A stretch of DNA of 64,000 nt. Origin: a virus. How positions within the stretch are numbered: position 1 is the stretch's first letter; every line of letters begins with the position of its first letter. Made by a program: the position numbers and the translations under genes. Below, one piece after another: positions 124-56,744 of the stretch. Below the pieces are notes generated by a model. It was not told where the DNA came from. It saw only the letters and a list, made by a program, of their open reading frames with translations, and made no database searches. The DNA lies in the UHGV virus genome UHGV-0076293; one strand, written 5' to 3'.

Positions 124-1503
124 ATGAAAATTATTGAATTCTATAAATCGTTTCTTAAATCACAAGGATTCGATTTCGAGAACGATTTGCTTACCCGTGA
201 TGACGGTGAGCCAGCAGAATTTACCTACAACAAAGTGAAGCGCCGCCTGGCGCTTCCAACGTCAGCAATGATTAAGAAAGGAATGGAAGATGACGACGGA
301 CGTGAATGTCAGGCATTCCATCCTCTCTGTGAATCTGTGCTGGCCGGTGAATCGGGCACTATCCGTTTCTTGAAGAAATCCATCAATGCGAATTTGTTCA
401 TTCGTTCCTTTGCGTTGATTGATGCTATTCTGGAAACGGCTGCCAGTGGTAAAGCAATTCGTTCTGCGGCGTACAAGAAGTTCTTAACGGAACAGATTTG
501 TGAAGGGATGAAAGATCCGACGTTTGACGATCGTTTGGTAAAATCCTGGGAAGCAGTTAAACAATACGTTTATGGCTTATTGGAGCGCGATAAAAAGCAC
601 AAAGTTACCCAGCTCTTTATTGCATCTGATTTAGTTATCGACGGTGTGAAGTTTAACCGTGTGGCTAATTATCGCCATATGTTCGAAGAAGAATCCTTAG
701 ACGGTACAGCAATGTACTTCTCGGTGAAGCTTCAACGTAAACAGGATAAGGTGATTATTCATCGCCTGCTGACCACTGTGTTCGGTTGGTATCCAAGTGT
801 CACCGGTTCTAATGATTCCCGTCCGTACTTCGGGTCGTTAGCACGCGGTTGGGCACAGTACGTGGTAAACTACAATAACGTAGTGAAAGGGCTACGTGAC
901 CACACACCACTGCGTCCGTTGGACGATGAATGGATTTCACAGCTGGACAACATGGAGATTTACGATAATGTCATCCAGACCTTACCGTATAACACCGGTC
1001 CACGTTCAGACAATCCTGAGCGTGATACCAGTGCCCGTGAGTTCAGAATTGACAGATCGTCGGCAACGGAACAGATCCCGACGAAGAAGGCGTCTGATGC
1101 GGATAAGCCGAACCTGGACGATCCGGTAGAGTTCTTCCGTGCGCGTAAGCAACGGATGGCTCCAACGAACAGCTTCGGTAATCTTTCTCCAGCAATGCAG
1201 CGTTTTGTGGAAGAACACAACACAACTAACCTGGCTGGTACAGGAATGGTAGGACGGATTTCTGTAGTAGATGCTTTCGGTGGCGAGCGTAAGAACAGCG
1301 GTTTTGGTGACGTAGGTGGATTCGGACAACCGAACTCGCTGTCGAATACGTTTGGTGGTGGGCACTCTTTTGGCGGGGGTTCATCATTCGGAGGCAGTTC
1401 TTTCGGCAGCCAGCCTCAGTTTGGTTCACCTAGCGGATTTGGTAGTAGTACAAGCAACCCATTTGCCAGTGCTTCTACGAGTCCGTTTAAGAGCTCGTAC
1501 TAA
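124..1503 (+). CDS. hypothetical protein with ~70-aa Gly/Ser/Phe-rich (FG/FGG repeat) low-complexity C-terminal tail
   Basis: 459-aa ORF, ATG start; tail GFGDVGGFGQPNSLSNTFGGGHSFGGGSSFGGSSFGSQPQFGSPSGFGSS; intrinsic terminator directly downstream. Confidence 0.6.
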   Translation: MKIIEFYKSFLKSQGFDFENDLLTRDDGEPAEFTYNKVKRRLALPTSAMIKKGMEDDDGRECQAFHPLCESVLAGESGTIRFLKKSINANLFIRSFALIDAILETAASGKAIRSAAYKKFLTEQICEGMKDPTFDDRLVKSWEAVKQYVYGLLERDKKHKVTQLFIASDLVIDGVKFNRVANYRHMFEEESLDGTAMYFSVKLQRKQDKVIIHRLLTTVFGWYPSVTGSNDSRPYFGSLARGWAQYVVNYNNVVKGLRDHTPLRPLDDEWISQLDNMEIYDNVIQTLPYNTGPRSDNPERDTSAREFRIDRSSATEQIPTKKASDADKPNLDDPVEFFRARKQRMAPTNSFGNLSPAMQRFVEEHNTTNLAGTGMVGRISVVDAFGGERKNSGFGDVGGFGQPNSLSNTFGGGHSFGGGSSFGGSSFGSQPQFGSPSGFGSSTSNPFASASTSPFKSSY

Positions 1504-1513
1504 GGTAGTAAAA

Positions 1514-1541
1514 AGAAGGGACAGTGTCCCTTCTTTTTTTA
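1514..1541 (+). terminator. intrinsic terminator (agaaggga-cagtg-tcccttct + T7)
   Basis: 8-bp GC-containing stem, 5-nt loop, T-run; immediately after stop of 124-1503. Confidence 0.6.
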
Positions 1542-1862
1542 ATCGTCTACGATGGTGCTAAGAATACTGGCGACGACCCCGGCATCTGGAACTATCAGCT
1601 CTGTAATCTCAGGGGTGAAGTTCATAGGGTCTTCCAAGTTATTGAGTAGCATCATTGGGTAGATGATGTTTTCGGCATAACCTTTCAGTTTGCAATAAGC
1701 GTAGAAATTGTGAATCTCAGGATAACTGAATCGTGGGTCTACAGTTTCTACTTTAGTTTGTGGGTGTTTACGCAGAAAATCTGTGTAATCGTGCAGCACT
1801 TTCCAGGTGCTGGTATAGGGCGCAGGTATGATTTCTTTTAGGGTAATAAAATCTTCAAGCAT
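1539..1862 (-). CDS. hypothetical small protein (107 aa), convergent with upstream gene
   Basis: ORF with AGGAA RBS-like sequence 7 nt upstream of ATG on minus strand. Confidence 0.45.
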   Translation of the reverse strand: MLEDFITLKEIIPAPYTSTWKVLHDYTDFLRKHPQTKVETVDPRFSYPEIHNFYAYCKLKGYAENIIYPMMLLNNLEDPMNFTPEITELIVPDAGVVASILSTIVDD

Positions 1863-1883
1863 AGTTGTTCCTAAATTAAGTGA

Positions 1884-1896
1884 GATAGATATTATC
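1884..1896 (+). promoter_or_regulatory. AT-rich promoter-like element GATAGATATTATC (copy 1), ~30 nt upstream of RNAP beta-like gene
   Basis: Identical 13-mer recurs at 43886-43898, also ~35 nt upstream of a strong RBS/ATG. Confidence 0.3.
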
Positions 1897-1925
1897 CTAC
1901 CGAATCAACCTAAAGGAGCATTAAA

Positions 1926-4166
1926 ATGAAAACGCCAGTTGAGCTATTGAGCAGCGTCGCTGACCGTGAAGTCAATATCGCACAGGTATCAGGTGCAAGG
2001 GCATCGATGGTAGGTAACCATATGAAGTCCTCGGTCCCGATTGACCATCCTGAGCCGTCACCTCACTTTACGGGCGCAGATACCAATTACCACGATTTTC
2101 TGTTTAACGATATTGTGGAAGACAGTGGGAGCATCTGTCATTACACAACTAAGGAAGGTAGACAACGTCGCGCAACGTTTACCCGTTATGGTCGTCGTGG
2201 GGATTCCCGTGCGCTGGAACACGCGATATTCTTCCGTCGTGCAGAATGCCGTATCCCAGGCAAAACAATGATAGACGTCATCGAGATTAACTTTTATACT
2301 AATCACGATAACGTGTTCTCTTCCGAGAAATGGGAATCACCAAAACTGCGCAGTTTGTTACGTGGTGAAACCGACCAGTTAGAAAAGGATGAAATCCTGA
2401 CGACGATGCCGTGCATGGTGGATGGTGAATTCGCAGACAGTGTGGTGCTGCCGACAGTTACCATCTCACACCCAGACATTATCGAGGATTCCTACACGAT
2501 TTCCGAAGAAGCGGCACAGAAGCTTCACGGGTATGGGTTGAAGGTTATCGAGAAAACGTTGCGTGAAGACGAATTCTTACTGGATACCTACGGTTATAAC
2601 GATCCCGAGGGAAATCGTGTACCGCGCTATTTTCCAGACGTGGGTGAAGCAATTCGTGACGACGGCTTAGTTATTGCTTCTCGTCGTTTCGATGACCTGT
2701 ACGCAGCGATTGATGCAACCTTAGGAGAAACCCAACACGTTTCTCCGTTCTTCGATAACTGTGATTACGTGGATGCCGATCCGATACACTATAAAGCACG
2801 TTTGGAAAACAACCACGAACTGATGGAGCGCAGCGGAACACGCATTGTTGATATTCAGGTTTGGCGTGATGAAACGTCATGCGGTAATGGAACGAATAAC
2901 ATTAACTGTACTGAAGAGAACAAACGTGAGCTTGACAAATACGCATTGGCGTTAAAGGACTACTACAATGCGATTGTTCGCTTCTATTTCTCCGTGTCGA
3001 GAGATAAAAACGTTATCTGGTCTCCCAAAGCGTGTGTGTTGCTGGAGAAAGCTTTTGCATCCGAAACGTACGAAGTCTACGCAGAGTTTCGTGAAGAAAT
3101 TCGCGGGGTGATTGAAGACGCAATTCGTCGCGGCGAATACGGTAAAGAGAACGTAAGTCAACAGATTATCTCCAAATTGACTTCACCTGTTCAGCGTGGA
3201 TTAAGCGATCCCATCAATACGTACACAATTCGTATCGCGGTACGTTATCCGATCCCGGTGACGGTGTCTTCTAAGATTACCGACCGTTCGGGTACGAAAG
3301 GGATTGTGGGTCGTGTACTGCCAGTTGAACAGATGCCAATTAACGAGTTCGGCGAACGTGTTCACGTACTACGTTCAATGAACGCCGTAATTCGTCGTTC
3401 TACCTACGCCGCACTGTTCCACATGTATTGGTCAGCAGCATCCGAACAGCTGAAGATGCGTCTTAAACCGATGCTGGATGAAGGACGTATTGGTGAGTGT
3501 TGGGAAATCCTGATGGACTACCTTTCACGCTATAATCCAGAATGGGCGAACACGTTACAGGCTACGCATCCTACGGAGGATTTGCAGCGAGAACTCTTTA
3601 AAGAGATTTACGATTTCACCATCCGCATTTACCTACCTCACGAACTTGATGACACTCCGGTGGAAATCAGTGAACGTTTAGGTGAGTTTAAACCCCGTAA
3701 GTCGAAACTGCTTATTACCAATTACGATGGTAAACAGGAATGGACAAAAGACGAGTTTTACGTGGGTGGTGTAGAAACATTACGGCTTGATAAAACGGGA
3801 CGTGAATTCTCAAGTATTTCGTCGATGTACCTGAACTACCTGGGCACGATCGATGCGTCTAACCAAGGACGTGGTTCGTATCCGGTAAACTATAAAACGC
3901 TAAAATGGGCTGGTCCTTCGGAAGAACGACTATTAGCGGGTTATGGTCCAGGTAACTACGAAGAGGTTCACGATAGGGCAAATAACCCTGCTGTGCATCG
4001 AGAGATTTTAGTAGGGCTGTACCGATCTCAAACTCCTTCCAATCCGGGCGTACTGGTAGACCGGAATAAACTCCCATTAGGAGATTCGCAGATTGACAGA
4101 ATGATGAAAAACATTCACAGCTGTGAAGGGTTTGAATTGGTGAAAATGAAAAGGGGCGAAGAATAA
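1926..4166 (+). CDS. rpoB: multisubunit RNA polymerase beta-subunit-like protein (C-terminal catalytic module)
   Basis: SGTKGIVGRVLPVEQMPINEFGERVHVL..RSMN aligns with bacterial beta [50 protein letters not shown]; 746 aa. Confidence 0.7.
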   Translation: MKTPVELLSSVADREVNIAQVSGARASMVGNHMKSSVPIDHPEPSPHFTGADTNYHDFLFNDIVEDSGSICHYTTKEGRQRRATFTRYGRRGDSRALEHAIFFRRAECRIPGKTMIDVIEINFYTNHDNVFSSEKWESPKLRSLLRGETDQLEKDEILTTMPCMVDGEFADSVVLPTVTISHPDIIEDSYTISEEAAQKLHGYGLKVIEKTLREDEFLLDTYGYNDPEGNRVPRYFPDVGEAIRDDGLVIASRRFDDLYAAIDATLGETQHVSPFFDNCDYVDADPIHYKARLENNHELMERSGTRIVDIQVWRDETSCGNGTNNINCTEENKRELDKYALALKDYYNAIVRFYFSVSRDKNVIWSPKACVLLEKAFASETYEVYAEFREEIRGVIEDAIRRGEYGKENVSQQIISKLTSPVQRGLSDPINTYTIRIAVRYPIPVTVSSKITDRSGTKGIVGRVLPVEQMPINEFGERVHVLRSMNAVIRRSTYAALFHMYWSAASEQLKMRLKPMLDEGRIGECWEILMDYLSRYNPEWANTLQATHPTEDLQRELFKEIYDFTIRIYLPHELDDTPVEISERLGEFKPRKSKLLITNYDGKQEWTKDEFYVGGVETLRLDKTGREFSSISSMYLNYLGTIDASNQGRGSYPVNYKTLKWAGPSEERLLAGYGPGNYEEVHDRANNPAVHREILVGLYRSQTPSNPGVLVDRNKLPLGDSQIDRMMKNIHSCEGFELVKMKRGEE

Positions 4167-6265
4167 TGAAGGCGACTCCGGTTCACGTAAGAGACTTGTG
4201 CAAGTTGAATTCGGATCAGGTGTGGCTACTTCGGGGCGTTTACGACGTGTCCTTCGACGATGGGGTCACGTTGAGAATGTCTGGTCGACACATTAAGTTG
4301 AGCTGGCCGTATTGGGGATTAACCCAGTTTTATCCCCAAGTGCCAATCTCGTCGAACATGGCGTATAAGCATGGCGACACGGCAACTGACGATGCGCATC
4401 TGCGCTTTATGTCGTTGGCAGCTGTAGCAGCACGTAAGGCCGGAGTGGATCTGGCCGATACCCGTTACCTGTTATCACAACACGTTTATGCGAATGCGTT
4501 TAACCTGACGGTGAAAAACCTGTTGTCGTATTGTGTTACCATTGACTACGATACGATGATGGAGATTTATCAGCATGAAAACTTCAAGCTGATTATCGAA
4601 TGGTCTAAACTCTATCCGACGGGTTACGATGAGGAGGGTAACGATAAGGTAGAAGAAGCCTATCAACTCATTGAGAAAATCTTTAAAGATCCGAGACTCT
4701 CAAACAACCCAGTCGTCATGTCTGTGTTAGACCGCACACTGAAAATGGATCAGATTCTCCAGGCTTACATTCGTGGTAAGACTTCAGAGATTGACTCCCG
4801 TGTGTACTCTAACCAGGTATGGGAAGGTTTCTTCACTGGCTTGCATTCTGTTATCAGTCGACTGAAAGAAGCAGGTGCGACATCGCGTTCTCACCTGTAT
4901 AACACCGACAAGATTGCAGACGCAGAGTACGCATCGCGTAAGTTGCAGTTAGCGGCTAACGTGCTGATGTTCTTCGATTACGAAGACTGTGGTACACATC
5001 ACGTACACAGACACACCTTTACGAATTCGCCGTTGGAAGAAGCGAAATTCAAAGCGATGAAAGGAATGCGTTATCGCTTCGAAGGTACTGGTGGTCCGTG
5101 GTTACGATTCGAAGATGGTGAGTTTGAGAAAGTCTTGAACAAACCTATCGAGTTCCGTACCGCGATGTGTTGCAAAGGAATGTCACGACAGACTATCTGT
5201 GCAACGTGTATGGGTGACTTGATTTATAACCTGTCGCCTGGCACGTCACCGGGTCACCTTGCGTCAACCGCAATCTCGGAAAAGGGTACTCAAGGTATTC
5301 TGTCGACGAAACACCTTGACTTCCTGCGTTATCTGCTGAACTTGGTCTTGTCGCCAAGAATGCGTGATTATCTCACGGAGTATAAGCACAACTCCGTTAA
5401 AGGGATTAGTTTACTGGAGAAGCCGCAATACGGTACCTGGGATGAATACCAACTGGTAATTTCGGATGAAGTGTATTCAGAGATTAGCCAGATTGCGTAT
5501 CATGAAGACCTGGACGATATTGATGAAACGGCACTCCCGGAAATTAATGACCTTACGTTTGTTCGTTTAGATGCAGAAGGGAATATACTGGCAGAAGATC
5601 CGATTGACGTTCGAATGGGCGTGTGCGGTAACTTCTCTAAGTCGTTCCTTCGCTTCTTCTTGAAGAATCGTGATAAGCTCGTATTCCCCAGCAAGAAAAC
5701 GGTGCGTGTTCCGCTAAAAGGATGGAAACCGTCCTGGCCGATCCTAATTTATACGAATCGGTCTGAATCTATGGCGGAGTTTGTAGCAGGGTTAGAATTG
5801 ATTTTACGTTCGGTAGCATCGGACAAGTCAGATAACTTCGAACAGTTCTCGGACGAGTCAATGCGTTTGAGCAAGAAGAGTGGTAAGGTTAAACCGATTA
5901 CCCTCGTTCAGATGCGTGGTGCCACGGAAAAACAATGTACTCATGCGTTGTTCTACGTGTTCAAATATATCCAACGTAAGCTCAAAGGGATTCCGATGAC
6001 GCACATCGCGATTATGTTGGCAATCTCTCGTGTTGAGTCACCTACTAACCCATTCCCGGCAGTAGGGTTTGACAGTGAGGATGCCGATGCCGCAGAAGGA
6101 AAACGCTTCGAAGATCACAATACACTGATTGCGATGCGTTCTGCAATCCCGATGTTGTTGTTTGAGGGACAACAGAAGAACTTGGACAACGTACGTTTCT
6201 ATACGTCACGTAAACGTCCTGCTTCGTTGTACGACAATTCTGTCGCAGCAACGATTATTGAGTAA
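4166..6265 (+). CDS. rpoC: multisubunit RNA polymerase beta-prime-like protein (C-terminal module with Zn site and trigger-loop-like motif)
   Basis: CCKGMSRQTICATC (Cx6CxxC) followed ~25 aa later by AISEKGTQGILSTKH, resembling beta-prime C888/C895/C898 and GEPGTQLTMRTFH; ATG overlaps upstream stop (ATGA). Confidence 0.6.
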   Translation: MKATPVHVRDLCKLNSDQVWLLRGVYDVSFDDGVTLRMSGRHIKLSWPYWGLTQFYPQVPISSNMAYKHGDTATDDAHLRFMSLAAVAARKAGVDLADTRYLLSQHVYANAFNLTVKNLLSYCVTIDYDTMMEIYQHENFKLIIEWSKLYPTGYDEEGNDKVEEAYQLIEKIFKDPRLSNNPVVMSVLDRTLKMDQILQAYIRGKTSEIDSRVYSNQVWEGFFTGLHSVISRLKEAGATSRSHLYNTDKIADAEYASRKLQLAANVLMFFDYEDCGTHHVHRHTFTNSPLEEAKFKAMKGMRYRFEGTGGPWLRFEDGEFEKVLNKPIEFRTAMCCKGMSRQTICATCMGDLIYNLSPGTSPGHLASTAISEKGTQGILSTKHLDFLRYLLNLVLSPRMRDYLTEYKHNSVKGISLLEKPQYGTWDEYQLVISDEVYSEISQIAYHEDLDDIDETALPEINDLTFVRLDAEGNILAEDPIDVRMGVCGNFSKSFLRFFLKNRDKLVFPSKKTVRVPLKGWKPSWPILIYTNRSESMAEFVAGLELILRSVASDKSDNFEQFSDESMRLSKKSGKVKPITLVQMRGATEKQCTHALFYVFKYIQRKLKGIPMTHIAIMLAISRVESPTNPFPAVGFDSEDADAAEGKRFEDHNTLIAMRSAIPMLLFEGQQKNLDNVRFYTSRKRPASLYDNSVAATIIE

Positions 6266-6267
6266 AC

Positions 6268-6295
6268 GAGAGGGGCCTGCGCCCCTCTTTTTTTG
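6268..6295 (+). terminator. intrinsic terminator (aggggc-ctgc-gcccct + T8)
   Basis: GC stem-loop + T-run right after stop of 4166-6265. Confidence 0.65.
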
Positions 6296-6307: not shown

Positions 6308-8017
6308 ATGTACGAATTCCACATGACCTTTACCAGCATGGGGGTGAGGGTTGAAGTCCCGTGCCGACAGATAGAGTCGGCGATACTTAAGTGGGCAGAA
6401 GAACATATGCACGCTCCTAAGATGGGCAAGCAATACGGTCGTATATTCACTGAACGTGGCGATCCGTATTACGCGCATATACCTTCTCTCCGCTCGTTTA
6501 TCTTCCACAGGAACTTTTCTGAGCGTTTACGCATTATTATTAATCGTACGGCCACCGAATTTGGCATTGAGTATAAGCTTTACGAGCATTACTTAACGCA
6601 GGGAACACCTTATCGGTGTAAGTTTGAAAACTACGGCTTTAAGATGGTGGAGGACGATGAGAATTCACGTTTCTTTTACCAGAATGCTGTGGTTGAAACG
6701 GCTTGCGAACCAAATCGTTTTCAAACCATCTTTGAAATTGGTACAGGGATGGGTAAGTCGAAAACGAACATGAAAGTAATGGTACGTAAGGGTGTCAGGA
6801 CGCTACTGATTCACCGTCCGACGTACATCTCAAAATGGTTGTTTGATTTAACTGAAGACCCAACGGGTTTACGTGAGTCGAAAGATGATGTTTTGGTTAT
6901 CCAAGGCGTTCAGGCTATCTACGAAGCGTTAGAGATGGGGGAATCAGGCGAATTAGACAAACGTGGGATTAAGGTTATCATTATCTCGACGGTAACGTTG
7001 CAACGATTCCTTAAAGAGTACATTAACACTGCCGCAACTAACCCAGTGAACATTGATGATTTCTACAACACCTTAGGCGTTGGGTTCTTGTCAATGGATG
7101 AAGTGCATGAGCATTTTCATCTGGTGTACATGGCAGGAATAATGCTCAACCCACCACCGTCTGTTGAGATGTCTGCGACGTTACAGCCAGGTGAATCAAA
7201 AGCGTTTTTAGCCGAACGGTATCGAGAGCGTTTTCCACAAGAGTCACGTATATTCATTCCGATTATTCCTGCTGTACACGTTAAAGCGTTGTACTACAGC
7301 ATTGAGAATAAACGGTTTGCGTGGTGGGCGAATAAGATGACGCCGTATAACCACAAGCTATTCGAAGGTAAGTTAATAAGTGAGAACATGCACTTATCTT
7401 ACGCGGATATGGTGTGGGACGTCATCGAGCGAACGTATCTGGCGAGTTACCAGCCTGGTCAGAAAGTGCTGGTGTTGTTTGCAACCGTTGCGATGTGTGA
7501 GTTCTTTACAGAGTACGTGCGAGAGAAACTGGCACAGTCTGATAAGTTCCACGCGCTGATGGTTGCGAAATACAACGCGGGGGATTCGTATGACGACTTT
7601 ATTCAAGCGGATTTCTCGATTTCAACACCAGGGAAAGCAGGCACTGCGGTTGACAAACCGGGGTTGGTCCACATGTACATCACAACGCCTGTGGAAGACC
7701 AGCAGTTAAACCGTCAGATGGCCGGTCGCCCGCGTAAGATACTTCACAACGATTGGGGTGAACTCGATCCCGTTGTGTGGTTATTCCATTCACTCTCGAT
7801 AGGGAAACACTGTAATTACTTGAATGCGCGTCAAAAGTCGCTTAGTGATTCTGTGTTGTCGTTTAAGATAGCTTCTTCACCGTATGTTGTAAGGAAAACC
7901 AATGTTACTACCGCCGCAGCCGACCGAGCCAACAGCACCGTATGCCGGGCTGAACTTAGCAAGTTTTCTCGAAAAGGTTTTAAAGGCATACCCAGACGTC
8001 GAAAACGTCGTCGATAA
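6308..8017 (+). CDS. putative SF2 (DExH-type) helicase; frame ends in a polybasic tail (GIPRRRKRRR)
   Basis: Walker A-like GTGMGKSKT and DEVHEH (DExH) Walker B; 569-aa ORF; last ~116 nt overlap the next gene. Confidence 0.55.
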   Translation: MYEFHMTFTSMGVRVEVPCRQIESAILKWAEEHMHAPKMGKQYGRIFTERGDPYYAHIPSLRSFIFHRNFSERLRIIINRTATEFGIEYKLYEHYLTQGTPYRCKFENYGFKMVEDDENSRFFYQNAVVETACEPNRFQTIFEIGTGMGKSKTNMKVMVRKGVRTLLIHRPTYISKWLFDLTEDPTGLRESKDDVLVIQGVQAIYEALEMGESGELDKRGIKVIIISTVTLQRFLKEYINTAATNPVNIDDFYNTLGVGFLSMDEVHEHFHLVYMAGIMLNPPPSVEMSATLQPGESKAFLAERYRERFPQESRIFIPIIPAVHVKALYYSIENKRFAWWANKMTPYNHKLFEGKLISENMHLSYADMVWDVIERTYLASYQPGQKVLVLFATVAMCEFFTEYVREKLAQSDKFHALMVAKYNAGDSYDDFIQADFSISTPGKAGTAVDKPGLVHMYITTPVEDQQLNRQMAGRPRKILHNDWGELDPVVWLFHSLSIGKHCNYLNARQKSLSDSVLSFKIASSPYVVRKTNVTTAAADRANSTVCRAELSKFSRKGFKGIPRRRKRRR

Positions 8018-8285
8018 ACTGTGTACCGATCCAACATTGTCCGTAGCGTTCCACTACTATATGGTAACGGAACACTTCGCCGGTATGCAGATTTTCCAAC
8101 GTGGTAAATGTTATTACATTACGCGTAACTCCAGTATCCGCAATACCTCGGCCTACGAGCTTTACAGCTGGGTGCTGTGGTCTGAAAACCCTGCGGGCAA
8201 TATCGATGAAAACCCGAAGGTGGCTTATCGACTATACTCTGAGAAATGGCACAGTTGGGTAGCCGTTCCTCACGATAGCAATTAA
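7902..8285 (+). CDS. hypothetical protein (127 aa)
   Basis: ATG with AAGGAAAA RBS; followed by terminator. Confidence 0.45.
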   Translation: MLLPPQPTEPTAPYAGLNLASFLEKVLKAYPDVENVVDKLCTDPTLSVAFHYYMVTEHFAGMQIFQRGKCYYITRNSSIRNTSAYELYSWVLWSENPAGNIDENPKVAYRLYSEKWHSWVAVPHDSN

Positions 8286-8297
8286 AAAGTACAGAAC

Positions 8298-8332
8298 GGG
8301 TGTATATTGTGTACACCCTTTCTTTTTTTGTT
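8298..8332 (+). terminator. intrinsic terminator (gggtgta-loop-tacaccc + T-run)
   Basis: Hairpin + tttctttttttgtt. Confidence 0.6.
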
Positions 8333-54639: not shown

Positions 54640-55519
54640 TGTCAAAGTTTACGACGGTAAACTCTCGACGGTAACACTTAATGCGATGCGTCTGGCTACC
54701 GCATTAATTACCGGTGCCGATGTGCAATACCCACAGAAGTCCACACTGAATGAGTTTTATAAGCTCATGCAAACTCCAGTGCCGGACGGTAAAGCACGTC
54801 CCCATTTGCAGTACATGGCGATTGGTAACCGTGGCCACATGGTCGACACATCAGATGTTGTTGCTGATGTTGTTCCTGTAGCTAAAGAACCTATCGCGTC
54901 CGGGATGTTTTCACGCGTTCCGTTTGTCCTGCGTACTAAAGACAACGATTTGTCTGATGAACAGCGTAAGAACTACGCTTTCCGTACTCTGGAAACCATC
55001 AACAAACGTGAGTATTGGGCGTACTATTTAAAACGCATTGACATGCGTGCAGTAAAAACTACCGACTACGACATTAAGCGTGAGAACGGTGTTGAAACTG
55101 TAGAAGACTTTGTTTATACGGATACTGAACTGAACCCGGTACCGAAAGTGTTGCCGGACTACGATTACGACGATGACGGTACCGTTGCAATTCCTGATGG
55201 CCGTTATGTGGAATCAGGCGCAGACCTGGTTATTCCGTGGACGGACTTTGACGTTCAGGAGTACATGAACGTGACCAGCATTATGCGCGGTAGCCCTCGT
55301 AGTTCGATTATCTCTGAACTGGCACTGTGCTCTGGTTTAGACCAGGTAACGTCCGGTGACTCTGCCACAGGTTCGAAGTTCAGCTACACTGAAGCTATCG
55401 GTGTACAAGCCCTGTATTACATTTCGATGTTTACTAACCTGGCGCAGACGAACGATAAGCTGTCACTGACAATCCGTATCGGTCAACCTGCACCGTTCTT
55501 CTTAGGGACAGCGAATTAA
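54632..55519 (+). CDS. hypothetical protein (295 aa)
   Basis: ORF overlapping upstream stop. Confidence 0.5.
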   Translation: MSNVKVYDGKLSTVTLNAMRLATALITGADVQYPQKSTLNEFYKLMQTPVPDGKARPHLQYMAIGNRGHMVDTSDVVADVVPVAKEPIASGMFSRVPFVLRTKDNDLSDEQRKNYAFRTLETINKREYWAYYLKRIDMRAVKTTDYDIKRENGVETVEDFVYTDTELNPVPKVLPDYDYDDDGTVAIPDGRYVESGADLVIPWTDFDVQEYMNVTSIMRGSPRSSIISELALCSGLDQVTSGDSATGSKFSYTEAIGVQALYYISMFTNLAQTNDKLSLTIRIGQPAPFFLGTAN

Positions 55520-56163
55520 TGTTGATTCCTGAGCCGAGACTTCCCGATAAGATGGTCAGGATCGCGGCGATAGACCCCGGTACGAGCCATCTCGGGATGG
55601 CGGTGCTGGATTGGGAATATGGCAGCGACCAAGCCGAAGTGGTGTGGGCTGATACCATGCACGTATTAGACCCAACACATCCAAGTGCGTTTGCAGAGTG
55701 TGTCGGTAAACGCGACGATCGCTTAGTAAAACTCGAAGCGTGCTACCGTGAGTTTCTTCGGATTGCGCGTCCGACGTTTGTTGCAACAGAAACGCCGTTT
55801 ATGCGGCGGGCAAAACTCTCCGCGTACGAATCTGGCGTAGAGTTACAGCTGATGTTAAGACGAGCGTTATGGGACGTGTTTCCAGAGAAGGTGCTACACG
55901 GGTTCAATCCGATTATTGTAAAATCATTCGTTGGTGTGGAAGCGAAAGGAACGGACAAAACAGATATGTTTCGTGCCGTAACGAAGTTGTATCGCGACCA
56001 CGCGTTGTTTGACATTACAACGTTGGATGAGCACAGTATCGATGCCGTGGCGGTGGGGAATATCTTTGTCAGGGTAAACCTGTTAAACTTGAATAGTCTC
56101 CTACCGCCAAAACAAAAGTCTGCTAAGACAGCAAAACGGCGGAGAAGACGTCGGAGGAAATAG
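55519..56163 (+). CDS. ruvC: RuvC-like Holliday junction resolvase with poly-Arg C-terminal tail (KTAKRRRRRRRK)
   Basis: IAAIDPGTSHLGMAV vs RuvC ILGIDPGSRVTGYGV; ETPFM vs EQVFM; DEHSIDAVAVG vs ADAADALAIA. Confidence 0.6.
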   Translation: MLIPEPRLPDKMVRIAAIDPGTSHLGMAVLDWEYGSDQAEVVWADTMHVLDPTHPSAFAECVGKRDDRLVKLEACYREFLRIARPTFVATETPFMRRAKLSAYESGVELQLMLRRALWDVFPEKVLHGFNPIIVKSFVGVEAKGTDKTDMFRAVTKLYRDHALFDITTLDEHSIDAVAVGNIFVRVNLLNLNSLLPPKQKSAKTAKRRRRRRRK

Positions 56164-56165
56164 CG

Positions 56166-56744
56166 ATGTCGCAACCAACACAAGACGTGTCAGCAGCAAT
56201 TCTTGACATTCTTATCCAAGCAGGGAACAGAAAGTTAAGTAAAGAGCAGTCCGAAGAACTGTCTAAGATTCTCAAAGACAACTTCGGTGACGAAGTCTCT
56301 GTAGACGTAACACGGTCGGGTACAAAGATTCTGTCGGAGTTACGTCCAACGCTTCTTGAGAACCTTGGAAAGATGGCGGAAAACTTTCAGCAGCAAGCCA
56401 CAAATGCTGTAGAGAGTTTAGGTGACGAAGTAAGCAAAGAAACGATGTTGACACTGTGGCCGAAACTTGCTGGCGCACAGAAGTTCATTATTGTTCTGCT
56501 TGCATTCGCCACTGTTGTCGTGACAGGCTTCTTAGCGTACGACACTCATCAGAACTTTCCAAAAGACAGCATGGAAGTGTTGTTTGTATCCTTACTTCCG
56601 CTGTTCGGATTGGTAGTGTTCGCAACGTGGCCAATTAAAACATTGGCTTACAAGTCGTTGGAGATTGCTACCAAAGTTGTCGAGAAGAAACTTGAGAAAT
56701 CAGGTCAGGTCATCGCGAAGACAGAAACAAAGACAACGAAATAA
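56166..56744 (+). CDS. membrane protein with two predicted TM helices (192 aa)
   Basis: Hydrophobic stretches FIIVLLAFATVVVTGFLAY and VLFVSLLPLFGLVVFATWPI; followed by terminator. Confidence 0.5.
   Translation: MSQPTQDVSAAILDILIQAGNRKLSKEQSEELSKILKDNFGDEVSVDVTRSGTKILSELRPTLLENLGKMAENFQQQATNAVESLGDEVSKETMLTLWPKLAGAQKFIIVLLAFATVVVTGFLAYDTHQNFPKDSMEVLFVSLLPLFGLVVFATWPIKTLAYKSLEIATKVVEKKLEKSGQVIAKTETKTTK

What the first reader, a model, noticed from the sequence alone, without database searches (positions are those of the whole stretch)
6308..8285. Helicase frame runs 116 nt into the next gene and ends in a polybasic tail
The DExH helicase ORF continues past the RBS-preceded ATG at 7902 and terminates at 8017 with ...KGFKGIPRRRKRRR. 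Either a genuine long out-of-frame overlap, a recoding event, or a sequencing/assembly frameshift. The poly-Arg ending parallels the RuvC-like protein tail at 55519-56163.
Basis: seen in the sequence. Interest (0 to 1): 0.4.

Follow-up and report, generated by a model that had tools for sequence, protein, structure and literature searches.

The report
Helicase basic tail overprinted on neighbour gene
In this giant Salmonella-type phage, the last 39 residues of a DNA helicase (a floppy, arginine-rich tail) are encoded in a second reading frame over the start of the next gene; the arrangement is real and conserved, and is an ordinary but clean example of how viruses add a new protein segment by reading through into a neighbouring gene.

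Summary
ORF 6308-8017 (569 aa, SF2 DExH helicase) overlaps ORF 7902-8285 (127 aa) by 116 nt, in a different frame, and ends IPRRRKRRR*.

It is not a sequencing error or recoding. About 20 distinct relatives have the same ATG, the same stop and a 113-116 nt overlap. They include SPN3US, Asesino, Caitlin, Huxley, CR5, Derbicus, Wellington, IMG/VR contigs and contigs in Salmonella assemblies. Deeper metagenomic lineages (42-46% identity) have the overlap too.

Vibrio-phage outgroups end the helicase exactly where the window's downstream ATG lies. Two nested lineages lost the tail. Two others carry a long basic tail without any overlap.

With the downstream protein held fixed and its synonymous codons redrawn, the second frame would carry premature stops in 25-95% of draws. 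Its net charge would be +1 to +5, against +8 to +13 observed. Lineages without read-through match this null. The tail is therefore selected to stay open and basic.

AlphaFold2 folds the helicase to about residue 530 and leaves the tail disordered. The core resembles XPB and T4 UvsW.

The most likely role of the tail is an electrostatic DNA tether; this is inferred, not shown. This is a new member of a known kind, and interest is modest.

The parts
6308..8017 (+). SF2 DExH helicase gene (569 aa): folded core to about residue 530, plus a 39-residue C-terminal tail
   Evidence: The ORF is. It matches phrog_16 'DNA helicase' at E = 3.6e-51 and is 75% identical to Asesino gp53 and 73% to SPN3US gp36. 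Walker A G147/G149/K150, D264-E265-x-H267, S289-A290-T291 and Q470...G473-R474-x-R476 are invariant or nearly so in 33 homologs. The AlphaFold2 model has mean pLDDT 87.8. Top Foldseek PDB matches are XPB/Ssl2 and T4 UvsW, E about 1e-13 to 1e-14.
7892..7895 (+). Shine-Dalgarno-like AGGA for the downstream gene, inside helicase codons V528-R529-K530
   Evidence: Read directly from the sequence. An (A/C)GGA motif at the same distance from the ATG is present in all aligned in-group lineages.
7902..8017 (+). Dual-coding stretch of 116 nt. In the helicase frame it encodes tail residues 532-569. In the downstream frame it encodes codons 1-38 and the first two bases of codon 39.
   Evidence: The overlap is 113 or 116 nt, with the same ATG and the same TAA, in about 20 distinct sequences. 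Synonymous differences in the downstream gene are 0.44 here against 0.57 in the rest of that gene. Simulations are, and natural controls.
7988..8014 (+). Polybasic end of the helicase (IPRRRKRRR), read from the same bases as the downstream motif Y-P-D-V-E-N-V-V-D
   Evidence: Helicase codon position 1 is the wobble base of the previous downstream codon, so each Arg depends on a C or A wobble before a G-starting codon. The window uses GTC (14-17% of Val codons) three times here.
7902..8285 (+). Downstream gene (127 aa; phrog_9835; function unknown), the older frame of the overlap
   Evidence: It matches phrog_9835 at E = 2.1e-60. Its N-terminal motif LKAYPxVEDV is also present in Vibrio phages, where there is no overlap. 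AlphaFold2 gives pLDDT 73.5 with helices at 19-29, 33-42 and 46-56 followed by a beta sheet. No PDB fold match was found. The SPN3US homolog gp37 (127 aa) was detected by mass spectrometry in virions (PMC5105663, Table 5).
6268..6289 (+). Terminator-like hairpin upstream of the helicase gene
   Evidence: This is a consensus match only; the number of such sites in the region is not above the shuffle expectation.
8298..8318 (+). Terminator-like hairpin after the downstream gene. Together with 6268-6289 it brackets a two-gene unit.
   Evidence: Consensus match only.
55519..56163 (+). RuvC-like gene with a polybasic C-terminus (KRRRRRRRK*). This is a compositional parallel, not an overlap.
   Evidence: The tail is polybasic in Asesino, CR5, Machina, SPFM17 and Vibrio phage pVa-21. 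The next gene starts at 56166, and its GGAGGA lies inside the R-R codons.

Best explanation
This is a genuine, evolutionarily old dual-coding overlap.

The helicase gene (XPB/UvsW-like SF2 DExH enzyme) reads 116 nt past the start codon of the next gene, in a different frame. This adds a 39-residue, intrinsically disordered, strongly basic C-terminal tail (13 R+K, 2 D+E).

The downstream gene is the older frame. Its N-terminal helices and the motif YPxVEDV exist in relatives that have no overlap.

The run of arginines is the shifted reading of that acidic, Val/Gly/Ala-rich motif. Every downstream codon that starts with G gives CGN or AGR in the helicase frame when the preceding wobble base is C or A.

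The second frame is mildly basic by construction. Selection acting on the downstream gene's wobble bases has kept it free of stops and pushed it to a net charge of +8 to +13.

Both proteins are made from one bicistronic message. The downstream gene initiates at its own AGGA-N6-ATG inside the helicase coding region (inferred).

The most likely job of the tail is a non-specific electrostatic tether to DNA that raises the helicase's affinity or residence on its substrate. This last step is inferred, at roughly 45%.
For: **Shown**
- The same ATG, the same stop and a 113-116 nt overlap occur in about 20 distinct sequences spanning at least 6 genera and 51-99% helicase identity.
- The overlap, in the same relative frame, is also present in deeper lineages at 42-46% identity: L033, L034, L035 and L039.
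- The Vibrio-phage outgroup ends the helicase at ...FIIK*, which aligns with the window's ...VVRK. Its next gene starts after a 7-nt spacer and carries LKAYPSVEDVIDK.
- In an NJ tree with 200 bootstraps, tail-less P0100 joins the core tailed clade in 197/200 replicates. Tail-less P0101 joins the tailed P0103+P0105 in 162/200. Both are therefore secondary losses.
- Two lineages, L032 and L038, carry basic tails of 58-63 aa (18-22 R+K) with no overlap. The basic tail is therefore kept independently of how it is encoded.
- With the downstream protein fixed, redrawn codons give net charge +1.2 to +4.7 (sd about 2), against +8 to +13 observed. P is 0.002 or less in 9 of 10 lineages and 0.03 in L034. 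Premature stops appear in 25-95% of draws. A next-base-aware control for the window gives P = 0.003-0.007.
- Natural controls agree. In five lineages without read-through, the same frame has 3-5 stops in 40 codons and net charge +3 to +5.
- Over the same bases, the downstream frame is 65% identical between genera and the tail 37%. This is as expected for an older, structured frame and a younger frame constrained only in composition.
- The tail is predicted disordered: pLDDT is below 50 for residues 543-569, while the core averages 87.8.
- The SPN3US homolog of the downstream gene (gp37, 127 aa) was seen by mass spectrometry (PMC5105663).

**Inferred**
- The DNA-tether role rests on composition, disorder and the enzyme class.
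Against: - No direct evidence shows that the tail is present on the mature helicase in any of these phages. Tryptic proteomics cannot see an Arg-rich C-terminus.
- Two nested lineages and the outgroup do without the tail, so it is dispensable in some backgrounds.
- The second frame is intrinsically somewhat basic. It even reads ...SRRRHR* in Vibrio phages, where it is not translated. Part of the polybasic character is therefore a by-product.
- The simulations vary wobble bases only and treat lineages as independent. Synonymous sites are near saturation between genera (0.57-0.69 differences) but not fully so.
- The tree is neighbour-joining on 524 columns, not a likelihood analysis.
- The DNA-binding role is untested.
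Confidence: 0.72

Rival explanations
1. Neutral read-through. The helicase lost its stop codon, and the extension is translated junk that persists because it is harmless. Its arginines are only the shifted reading of the conserved downstream motif.
For: The untranslated second frame in Vibrio phages already reads ...LPVSRRRHR*. L036 reads ...RRRDR* at the same place. The tail sequence is poorly conserved, 37% between genera. Two lineages lost the tail. Proteins from overlapping genes are in general enriched in high-degeneracy residues such as Arg (PMC6195259, abstract).
Against: Stops reachable by silent changes in the downstream gene would appear in 25-95% of random codon draws, yet none is seen in about 20 distinct overlapping lineages. 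Net charge is 2-5 sd above the null in nearly every lineage. Lineages without read-through show 3-5 stops and net charge +3 to +5. Non-overlapping basic tails in L032 and L038 cannot be a by-product of a second frame.
Confidence: 0.17
2. The overlap exists mainly to regulate the downstream gene. Ribosomes finishing the helicase run over the downstream start and its first 38 codons, slowed by a polybasic, rare-codon run (AGA, CGA). This sets the ratio of a low-abundance virion protein to the helicase. The tail peptide itself is incidental.
For: The downstream RBS and ATG lie inside translated helicase sequence. The two genes are bracketed by terminator-like hairpins. The SPN3US homolog is a low-abundance virion-associated protein with 6 spectra. 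Tail-less L036 uses the classical ATGA coupling instead.
Against: This does not explain why non-overlapping lineages also carry long basic tails. It also does not explain why composition, rather than only openness, is held above the null. No conserved RNA structure is present: RNAalifold gives -6.96 kcal/mol with a covariation term of -0.1. Nothing was measured.
Confidence: 0.08
3. The polybasic C-termini of the helicase and the RuvC-like nuclease are a shared sorting signal, either for entry into the phage nucleus or for packaging with DNA into the capsid, rather than DNA-binding tethers.
For: In the whole SPN3US genome, only these two proteins have 7 or more R/K in their last 10 residues. 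Both are DNA enzymes, and both tails are restricted to one branch of the phiKZ-like phages; they are absent in PhiPA3. In PhiPA3, predicted helicases and endonucleases localise inside the phage nucleus (PMC10643120).
Against: Other proteins that work on the phage DNA (DNA polymerases, RNA polymerase subunits, the DnaB-like helicase) have no such tail, so it cannot be a general import signal. Neither the helicase nor the RuvC-like protein came up in the parts of the SPN3US virion study that I read. I did not read its full supplementary virion table (Table S4), so their presence there is not excluded. No localisation data exist for this clade.
Confidence: 0.06
4. Sequencing or assembly frameshift, or programmed recoding (frameshift or read-through that fuses the helicase to the downstream protein).
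For: None was found beyond the fact that long out-of-frame overlaps are unusual: 84% of viral gene overlaps are under 50 nt (PMC7017920, abstract). L037 has both genes in one frame, separated by a single TGA.
Against: The frame relation is identical in independent isolate genomes and metagenome assemblies. No conserved slippery site exists: GTT TTA AAG in the window is ATT CTA AAG, GTT CTA AGG or GTT TTA CGG elsewhere. Both ORFs are complete with their own start and stop. Separate genes occur in tail-less lineages in three different relative frames.
Confidence: 0.02

Closest known systems
SPN3US gp36 (helicase) / gp37 pair and its annotated orthologs in Asesino, phiEaH2, Caitlin, Huxley and Derbicus
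   Same: These are orthologous genes in the same order: RNA polymerase beta subunit, helicase, small protein. They share the same ATG, the same stop and a 113-116 nt overlap, and the helicase ends SRRRRRR*. RefSeq already annotates the overlap.
   Different: The window is a distinct species-level lineage: 73-75% helicase identity and no megablast hit in the phage collection. Its overlap is 116 nt rather than 113, and its tail ends RRRKRRR. I found no paper that discusses the overlap.
Gene overlap created by loss of a stop codon / overprinting in viruses (Delaye et al. 2008, PMC2268670; Pavesi et al. 2018, PMC6195259)
   Same: A contiguous gene in another frame is entered after the upstream stop is lost. 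The new stretch is disordered, rich in high-degeneracy residues (Arg, Ser) and less conserved than the older frame.
   Different: Only a C-terminal extension was born, not a whole new protein. The genome is a roughly 240-kb dsDNA phage with no obvious pressure to save space. At least two related lineages carry an equivalent basic tail without any overlap.
XPB/Ssl2 (TFIIH) and phage T4 UvsW SF2 helicases/translocases
   Same: These are the best structural matches of the predicted core: 9pd3_A, 5tnu_A and 2oca at E = 4e-14 to 3e-13. The Walker A, DExH, SAT and Q..GR.R motifs are conserved.
   Different: Sequence identity is only 10-13%. There is no Pfam, NCBIfam or PDB sequence hit. The polybasic tail lies outside the folded region on which the match rests. 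From my own knowledge, T4 uvsW is followed by a small separate ORF, uvsW.1, once misread as part of uvsW. That is a loose positional analogy only.
Basic C-terminal tails of SF2 helicases, e.g. DEAD-box CYT-19 and Mss116p (from my own knowledge, not checked here)
   Same: An unstructured Arg/Lys-rich C-terminal extension follows the second RecA-like domain and is thought to tether the core non-specifically to nucleic acid.
   Different: Those are RNA chaperones with tested tails. Here the substrate is presumed to be DNA, nothing has been tested, and the tail is encoded in an overlap.
RuvC-like protein of the same phage (window 55519-56163; SPN3US gp85)
   Same: It has a lineage-restricted, conserved polybasic C-terminus on a DNA-processing enzyme.
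   Different: Its tail is not dual-coding: the stop is at 56163 and the next ATG at 56166. It is also present in the Vibrio-phage outgroup, which lacks the helicase tail.

Membership tests
SF2 (DExH) helicase | Walker A GxGK(S/T), motif II DExH, motif III SAT, motif VI Q..GR..R | tested here: met
   G147, G149, K150, D264, E265, H267, T291, Q470, R474 and R476 are invariant. S289, A290 and G473 are at least 90% conserved in 33 homologs.
SF2 (DExH) helicase | Two RecA-like domains; fold match to solved SF2 enzymes | tested here: met
   The AlphaFold2 model has pLDDT 87.8. Foldseek against the PDB gives 469 matches at E <= 0.001, led by XPB/Ssl2 and T4 UvsW.
SF2 (DExH) helicase | ATP-dependent unwinding or translocation | not testable with these tools
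   This needs biochemistry.
Same-strand dual-coding gene overlap (overprinted extension) | Both frames open over the shared stretch in all members that have it | tested here: met
   About 20 distinct in-group sequences and 4 deeper lineages meet this. Openness would be lost in 25-95% of synonymous redraws.
Same-strand dual-coding gene overlap (overprinted extension) | Constraint on the second frame beyond what the first frame imposes | tested here: met
   Synonymous differences in the downstream gene are 0.44 in the overlap against 0.57 outside it. Charge and stop-codon simulations are, and natural controls.
Same-strand dual-coding gene overlap (overprinted extension) | An older frame can be identified from relatives without the overlap | tested here: met
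   The downstream N-terminus is conserved in Vibrio phages, L036 and L037, where the helicase stops earlier. Identity between genera is 65% for the downstream frame and 37% for the tail.
Same-strand dual-coding gene overlap (overprinted extension) | Both products shown to be expressed with the shared residues | tested here: inconclusive
   SPN3US gp37 (annotated at 127 aa) was detected with 6 spectra, but the peptides were not listed. There are no data on the helicase C-terminus.
Programmed ribosomal frameshift / read-through | Conserved slippery site or leaky stop, with a stimulatory RNA structure | tested here: not met
   The heptamer is not conserved. The consensus fold is -6.96 kcal/mol with no covariation.
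Intein-containing helicase alleles | In-frame Hint/LAGLIDADG insertion in the P-loop | tested here: not met
   The window protein is 569 aa with an intact GTGMGKS. Many homologs carry a 344-352 aa insertion after K150.

The most novel reading that the evidence does not exclude
A functional, disordered, DNA-binding (or sorting) module was born de novo in a giant dsDNA phage by reading a helicase through into the 5' end of a virion-protein gene, and has since been held by selection acting only on the neighbour's wobble bases. The same lineage independently gave its RuvC-like resolvase a polybasic C-terminus. On this reading the two tails form a shared, lineage-specific device that co-targets a branch-migration-type helicase and a junction resolvase to the replicating or packaged phage DNA.
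Probability: 0.15. Interest if true: 0.5.

Novelty: new member of a known kind. Interest (0 to 1): 0.3.

Why it matters
For annotation, the long overlap should be kept. Gene callers often truncate the downstream gene to 82-105 aa to avoid the overlap, which loses three predicted helices of a virion-associated protein.

For evolution, the locus is a well-sampled natural series. It includes an outgroup without the tail, many lineages with an overlap-encoded tail, two secondary losses and two lineages with a non-overlapping tail. It shows how a disordered basic extension can arise from the shifted reading of an acidic motif and then be maintained through a neighbour's synonymous sites.

For phage biology, it flags two DNA-processing enzymes (an XPB/UvsW-like helicase and a RuvC-like nuclease) whose polybasic C-termini could be tested for DNA tethering or localisation in SPN3US-like phages. 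None of this overturns current understanding.

Tried and rejected
- Megablast of the region against phage genomes gave no hit. Pfam and NCBIfam gave no hit for either protein. A PDB sequence-profile search gave no hit.
- Fold search of the downstream protein against the PDB gave nothing significant; the best E was 0.5. Its function stays unknown.
- **Conserved RNA structure as the cause of the synonymous constraint.** RNAalifold on 12 lineages gave -6.96 kcal/mol and a covariation term of -0.1. Only a short GACGTC...GACGTC-type hairpin made of invariant bases appeared. Rejected as the main explanation.
- **Recoding.** T_TTA_AAG in the downstream frame would shift -1 into the helicase frame, but it is not conserved. 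Rejected.
- **Polybasic C-termini as a general mark of nucleus-resident proteins.** A whole-genome scan of SPN3US found only the helicase and the RuvC-like protein. Rejected as a general signal.
- **Polybasic reading as purely a by-product.** It is partly true: the Vibrio and L036 alternative frames read RRRHR and RRRDR. It is insufficient, given and the non-overlapping tails.
- One bootstrap run with Biopython's distance calculator timed out. I redid it with my own distance function.
- An ungapped comparison of the 120 aa upstream of the tail (value 0.23) is an indel artefact and is not used.
Full report
**1. The observation**

The window holds an ORF at 6308-8017 on the + strand. It is 569 aa and ends ...KGFKGIPRRRKRRR, followed by TAA (8015-8017). 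A second ORF runs from 7902 to 8285 (127 aa). Its ATG lies 6 nt after AGGA at 7892-7895.

The overlap is 116 nt. Each downstream codon begins at position 2 of a helicase codon. Position 1 of each helicase codon is therefore the wobble base of the preceding downstream codon.

The RuvC-like ORF 55519-56163 ends KRRRRRRRK*. These two are the only ORFs of at least 60 aa in the window with 6 or more basic residues among their last ten.

**2. What the genes are**

The window comes from an SPN3US/Asesino-like giant phage.
- There is no nucleotide-level match in the phage collection.
- The helicase is 75% identical to Erwinia phage Asesino gp53 and 73% to Salmonella phage SPN3US.
- It is 92% identical to a protein cluster of 293 member sequences that NCBI names as from Salmonella enterica.
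- An IMG/VR contig carries a 99%-identical copy of the downstream gene.

The upstream gene is an RNA polymerase beta-subunit fragment (phrog_3015). The helicase matches phrog_16 (E = 3.6e-51) and the downstream protein matches phrog_9835, of unknown function.

The helicase has the SF2 signature: GTGMGKS, DEVHEH, SAT and Q..GRPR. The key residues are invariant in 33 homologs. Its AlphaFold2 model (mean pLDDT 87.8) resembles XPB/Ssl2 and T4 UvsW most closely.

Terminator-like hairpins at 6268-6289 and 8298-8318 bracket the two genes. These are consensus matches only.

**3. The overlap is real and conserved**

About 20 distinct relatives have the same arrangement: the same ATG, the same TAA, a 113 or 116 nt overlap and a helicase ending in 5-7 basic residues out of nine. 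They are:
- Asesino, SPN3US, EC001, Caitlin and ChrisDB;
- Huxley, pEa_SNUABM_6, pEa_SNUABM_11, CR5 and Derbicus;
- Kwan and Wellington;
- seven IMG/VR contigs.

RefSeq annotates the overlap in SPN3US, Asesino, Caitlin and Derbicus. In SPN3US it is the longest annotated overlap in the genome; the next longest are 74, 56, 55 and 50 nt.

This rules out a sequencing or assembly frameshift. No recoding is needed, and the one slippery-like heptamer in the window is not conserved.

**4. Which frame is older**

In Vibrio phages pVp-JHP1101 and pVa-21 (32% helicase identity) the helicase ends ...SFKILNSKFIIK*. This aligns with the window's ...SFKIASSPYVVRK. The next gene begins after a 7-nt spacer.

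That gene already has ...LDEFLHFVLKAYPSVEDVIDK..., the counterpart of the window's ...LASFLEKVLKAYPDVENVVDK. The downstream frame is therefore the older one, and the helicase tail is an extension laid over it.

Between genera, the downstream frame is 65% identical over the shared bases and the tail only 37%.

The downstream protein model places helices at residues 19-29 and 33-42 inside the overlap. Its SPN3US homolog, gp37 (127 aa), was detected by mass spectrometry in purified virions with 6 spectra. It was absent from tailless and vRNAP-less particles (PMC5105663, Table 5; the gene numbering was confirmed from that paper's supplementary table).

**5. Wider distribution**

The protein search returned 120 homologs. 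I inspected their C-termini and, for eight of them, the encoding contigs.

| State | Lineages (helicase identity to window) |
|---|---|
| Overlap-encoded basic tail, same relative frame, stop position variable | L033 (46%), L034 (43%), L035 (42%), L039 (44%) |
| Basic tail of 58-63 aa, no overlap; in L038 a terminator-like hairpin follows the helicase stop | L032 (37%), L038 (42%) |
| No tail | L036 (49%; ATGA junction, one base out of register with the tailed lineages), L037 (48%), Vibrio group, P0115, P0118, P0119 |

I built a neighbour-joining tree of the helicase core with 200 bootstraps.
- All tailed lineages, together with L036 and L037, form a clade that excludes the Vibrio group (200/200).
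- P0100 (the L036 protein) joins the core tailed clade (197/200).
- P0101 (the L037 protein) joins the tailed P0103+P0105 (162/200).

The two tail-less members are therefore secondary losses. The overlap-encoded tail predates the split of lineages that are now only about 42% identical.

**6. Is the tail selected, or only a by-product?**

The arginines come from reading Y-P-(G/D)-V-E-(D/N)-V-(A/V) one base early. Any G-starting codon preceded by a C or A wobble gives CGN or AGR.

Part of this is intrinsic. The untranslated equivalent frame reads ...SRRRHR* in Vibrio phages and ...RRRDR* in L036.

Three results show more than a by-product.

- **Codon redraws.** I held the downstream protein fixed and redrew its synonymous codons from local usage.
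  - The redrawn helicase frame has net charge +1.2 to +4.7 (sd about 2) over the last 36 residues, against +8 to +13 observed.
  - P is 0.002 or less in nine of ten lineages and 0.03 in L034.
  - A premature stop appears in 25-95% of draws.
  - With next-base-aware usage from 50 window ORFs, the window still gives P = 0.003-0.007, with 87% of draws hitting a stop.
- **Natural controls.** Five lineages without read-through show exactly the null behaviour: 3-5 stops in 40 codons and net charge +3 to +5.
- **Non-overlapping tails.** The long basic tails of L032 and L038 cannot be by-products of a second frame.

Synonymous differences in the downstream gene are also lower inside the overlap than outside it, 0.44 against 0.57. 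A conserved RNA structure does not explain this.

There are caveats. Only wobble positions were varied, the lineages are not fully independent, and the tree is distance-based.

**7. Mechanism**

*Shown.* The overlap is real, old and maintained. The tail is compositionally constrained (8-22 R+K against 0-6 D+E across lineages). It is predicted disordered, with pLDDT below 50 for residues 543-569.

*Inferred.* Both proteins are made from one message, and the downstream gene initiates independently at its internal AGGA-N6-ATG. Termination-reinitiation is unlikely because the helicase stop lies 116 nt beyond the ATG. The tail most plausibly acts as a non-specific electrostatic tether to DNA for an XPB/UvsW-like motor.

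Rival readings are listed separately with their tests: a neutral extension, regulation of the downstream gene, and a sorting signal.

**8. The RuvC-like parallel**

The RuvC-like tail is conserved as polybasic in Asesino, CR5, Machina, SPFM17 and also in Vibrio phage pVa-21. It is not dual-coding.

In the entire SPN3US genome, only the helicase and the RuvC-like protein have 7 or more basic residues in their last ten. The PhiPA3 orthologs of both proteins lack such tails.

The parallel is real but involves just two proteins. It fits DNA tethering better than a general import tag, because the polymerases and RNA polymerase subunits lack such tails.

**9. Comparison and novelty**

The kind is known: gene overlap created by stop-codon loss or overprinting, yielding a disordered, Arg-rich, fast-evolving product (PMC2268670, PMC6195259). 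In viruses, 84% of overlaps are under 50 nt, but 53% of viruses have at least one of 50 nt or more (PMC7017920).

The orthologous overlap is already annotated in public genomes, though I found no discussion of it in the searches I ran. The window is a new member of a known kind.

What this analysis adds is the polarity of the event, its age, the two losses, the non-overlapping variants, and evidence that selection holds the tail open and basic.

**10. Verdict**

Interest is modest, at 0.3.

Noticed in passing
L008 (EC001) 1501-4245; L026 (Kwan); L015; L038; L039; P0046, P0061 and others. Window equivalent: after residue K150, about nt 6755-6757.: Many helicase homologs carry a 344-352 aa intein inserted in the Walker-A loop, GTGMGK|S. 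The insertions have Hint and LAGLIDADG domains (PF05203, PF14528, PF05204) and end ...THN|S. The window copy is intein-free.
   Followed up: partly
window 7902-8285 (homolog: SPN3US gp37, NC_027402.1 34997-35380): The downstream protein's SPN3US homolog was detected by mass spectrometry in purified virions (6 spectra). It was absent from tailless particles and from particles lacking the virion RNA polymerase subunit gp241 (PMC5105663, Table 5). Its fold has no significant PDB match.
   Followed up: partly
window 55519-56163 and 56166: The RuvC-like protein's polybasic end (CGG AGG AAA TAG) contains the GGAGGA ribosome-binding site of the next gene. Part of that tail's Arg content is therefore tied to a translation signal. 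The tail is conserved as basic even in Vibrio phage pVa-21.
   Followed up: partly
window 6268-6289 and 8298-8318: G+C-rich hairpins followed by T runs flank the helicase and small-gene pair, which suggests a two-gene transcription unit. The count of such sites in the region is not above the shuffle expectation.
   Followed up: no
CR5 L005 (annotated 3269-3463), Phobos L027 (2118-2378), pEa_SNUABM_11 L030 (2121-2342); P0124-P0127: Public annotations and gene callers often start the downstream gene at an internal codon, giving 64-105 aa, apparently to avoid the long overlap. The full 125-127 aa frame with the conserved ATG and AGGA is open in the loci checked (CR5 and pEa_SNUABM_11).
   Followed up: partly
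window 7994-8011 (GACGTCGAAAACGTCGTC): A short palindromic stretch, GACGT-CGAAA-ACGTC, forms a 5-bp hairpin in the poly-Arg coding stretch. It is conserved because the bases are conserved, with no compensatory changes.
   Followed up: partly
L036 4096-4099; L037 4070-4084: The two tail-less nested lineages lost the tail in different ways. L036 has an ATGA stop/start junction one base out of register with the tailed lineages. L037 has a TGA followed by 9 nt, with the downstream gene in the same frame as the helicase.
   Followed up: yes
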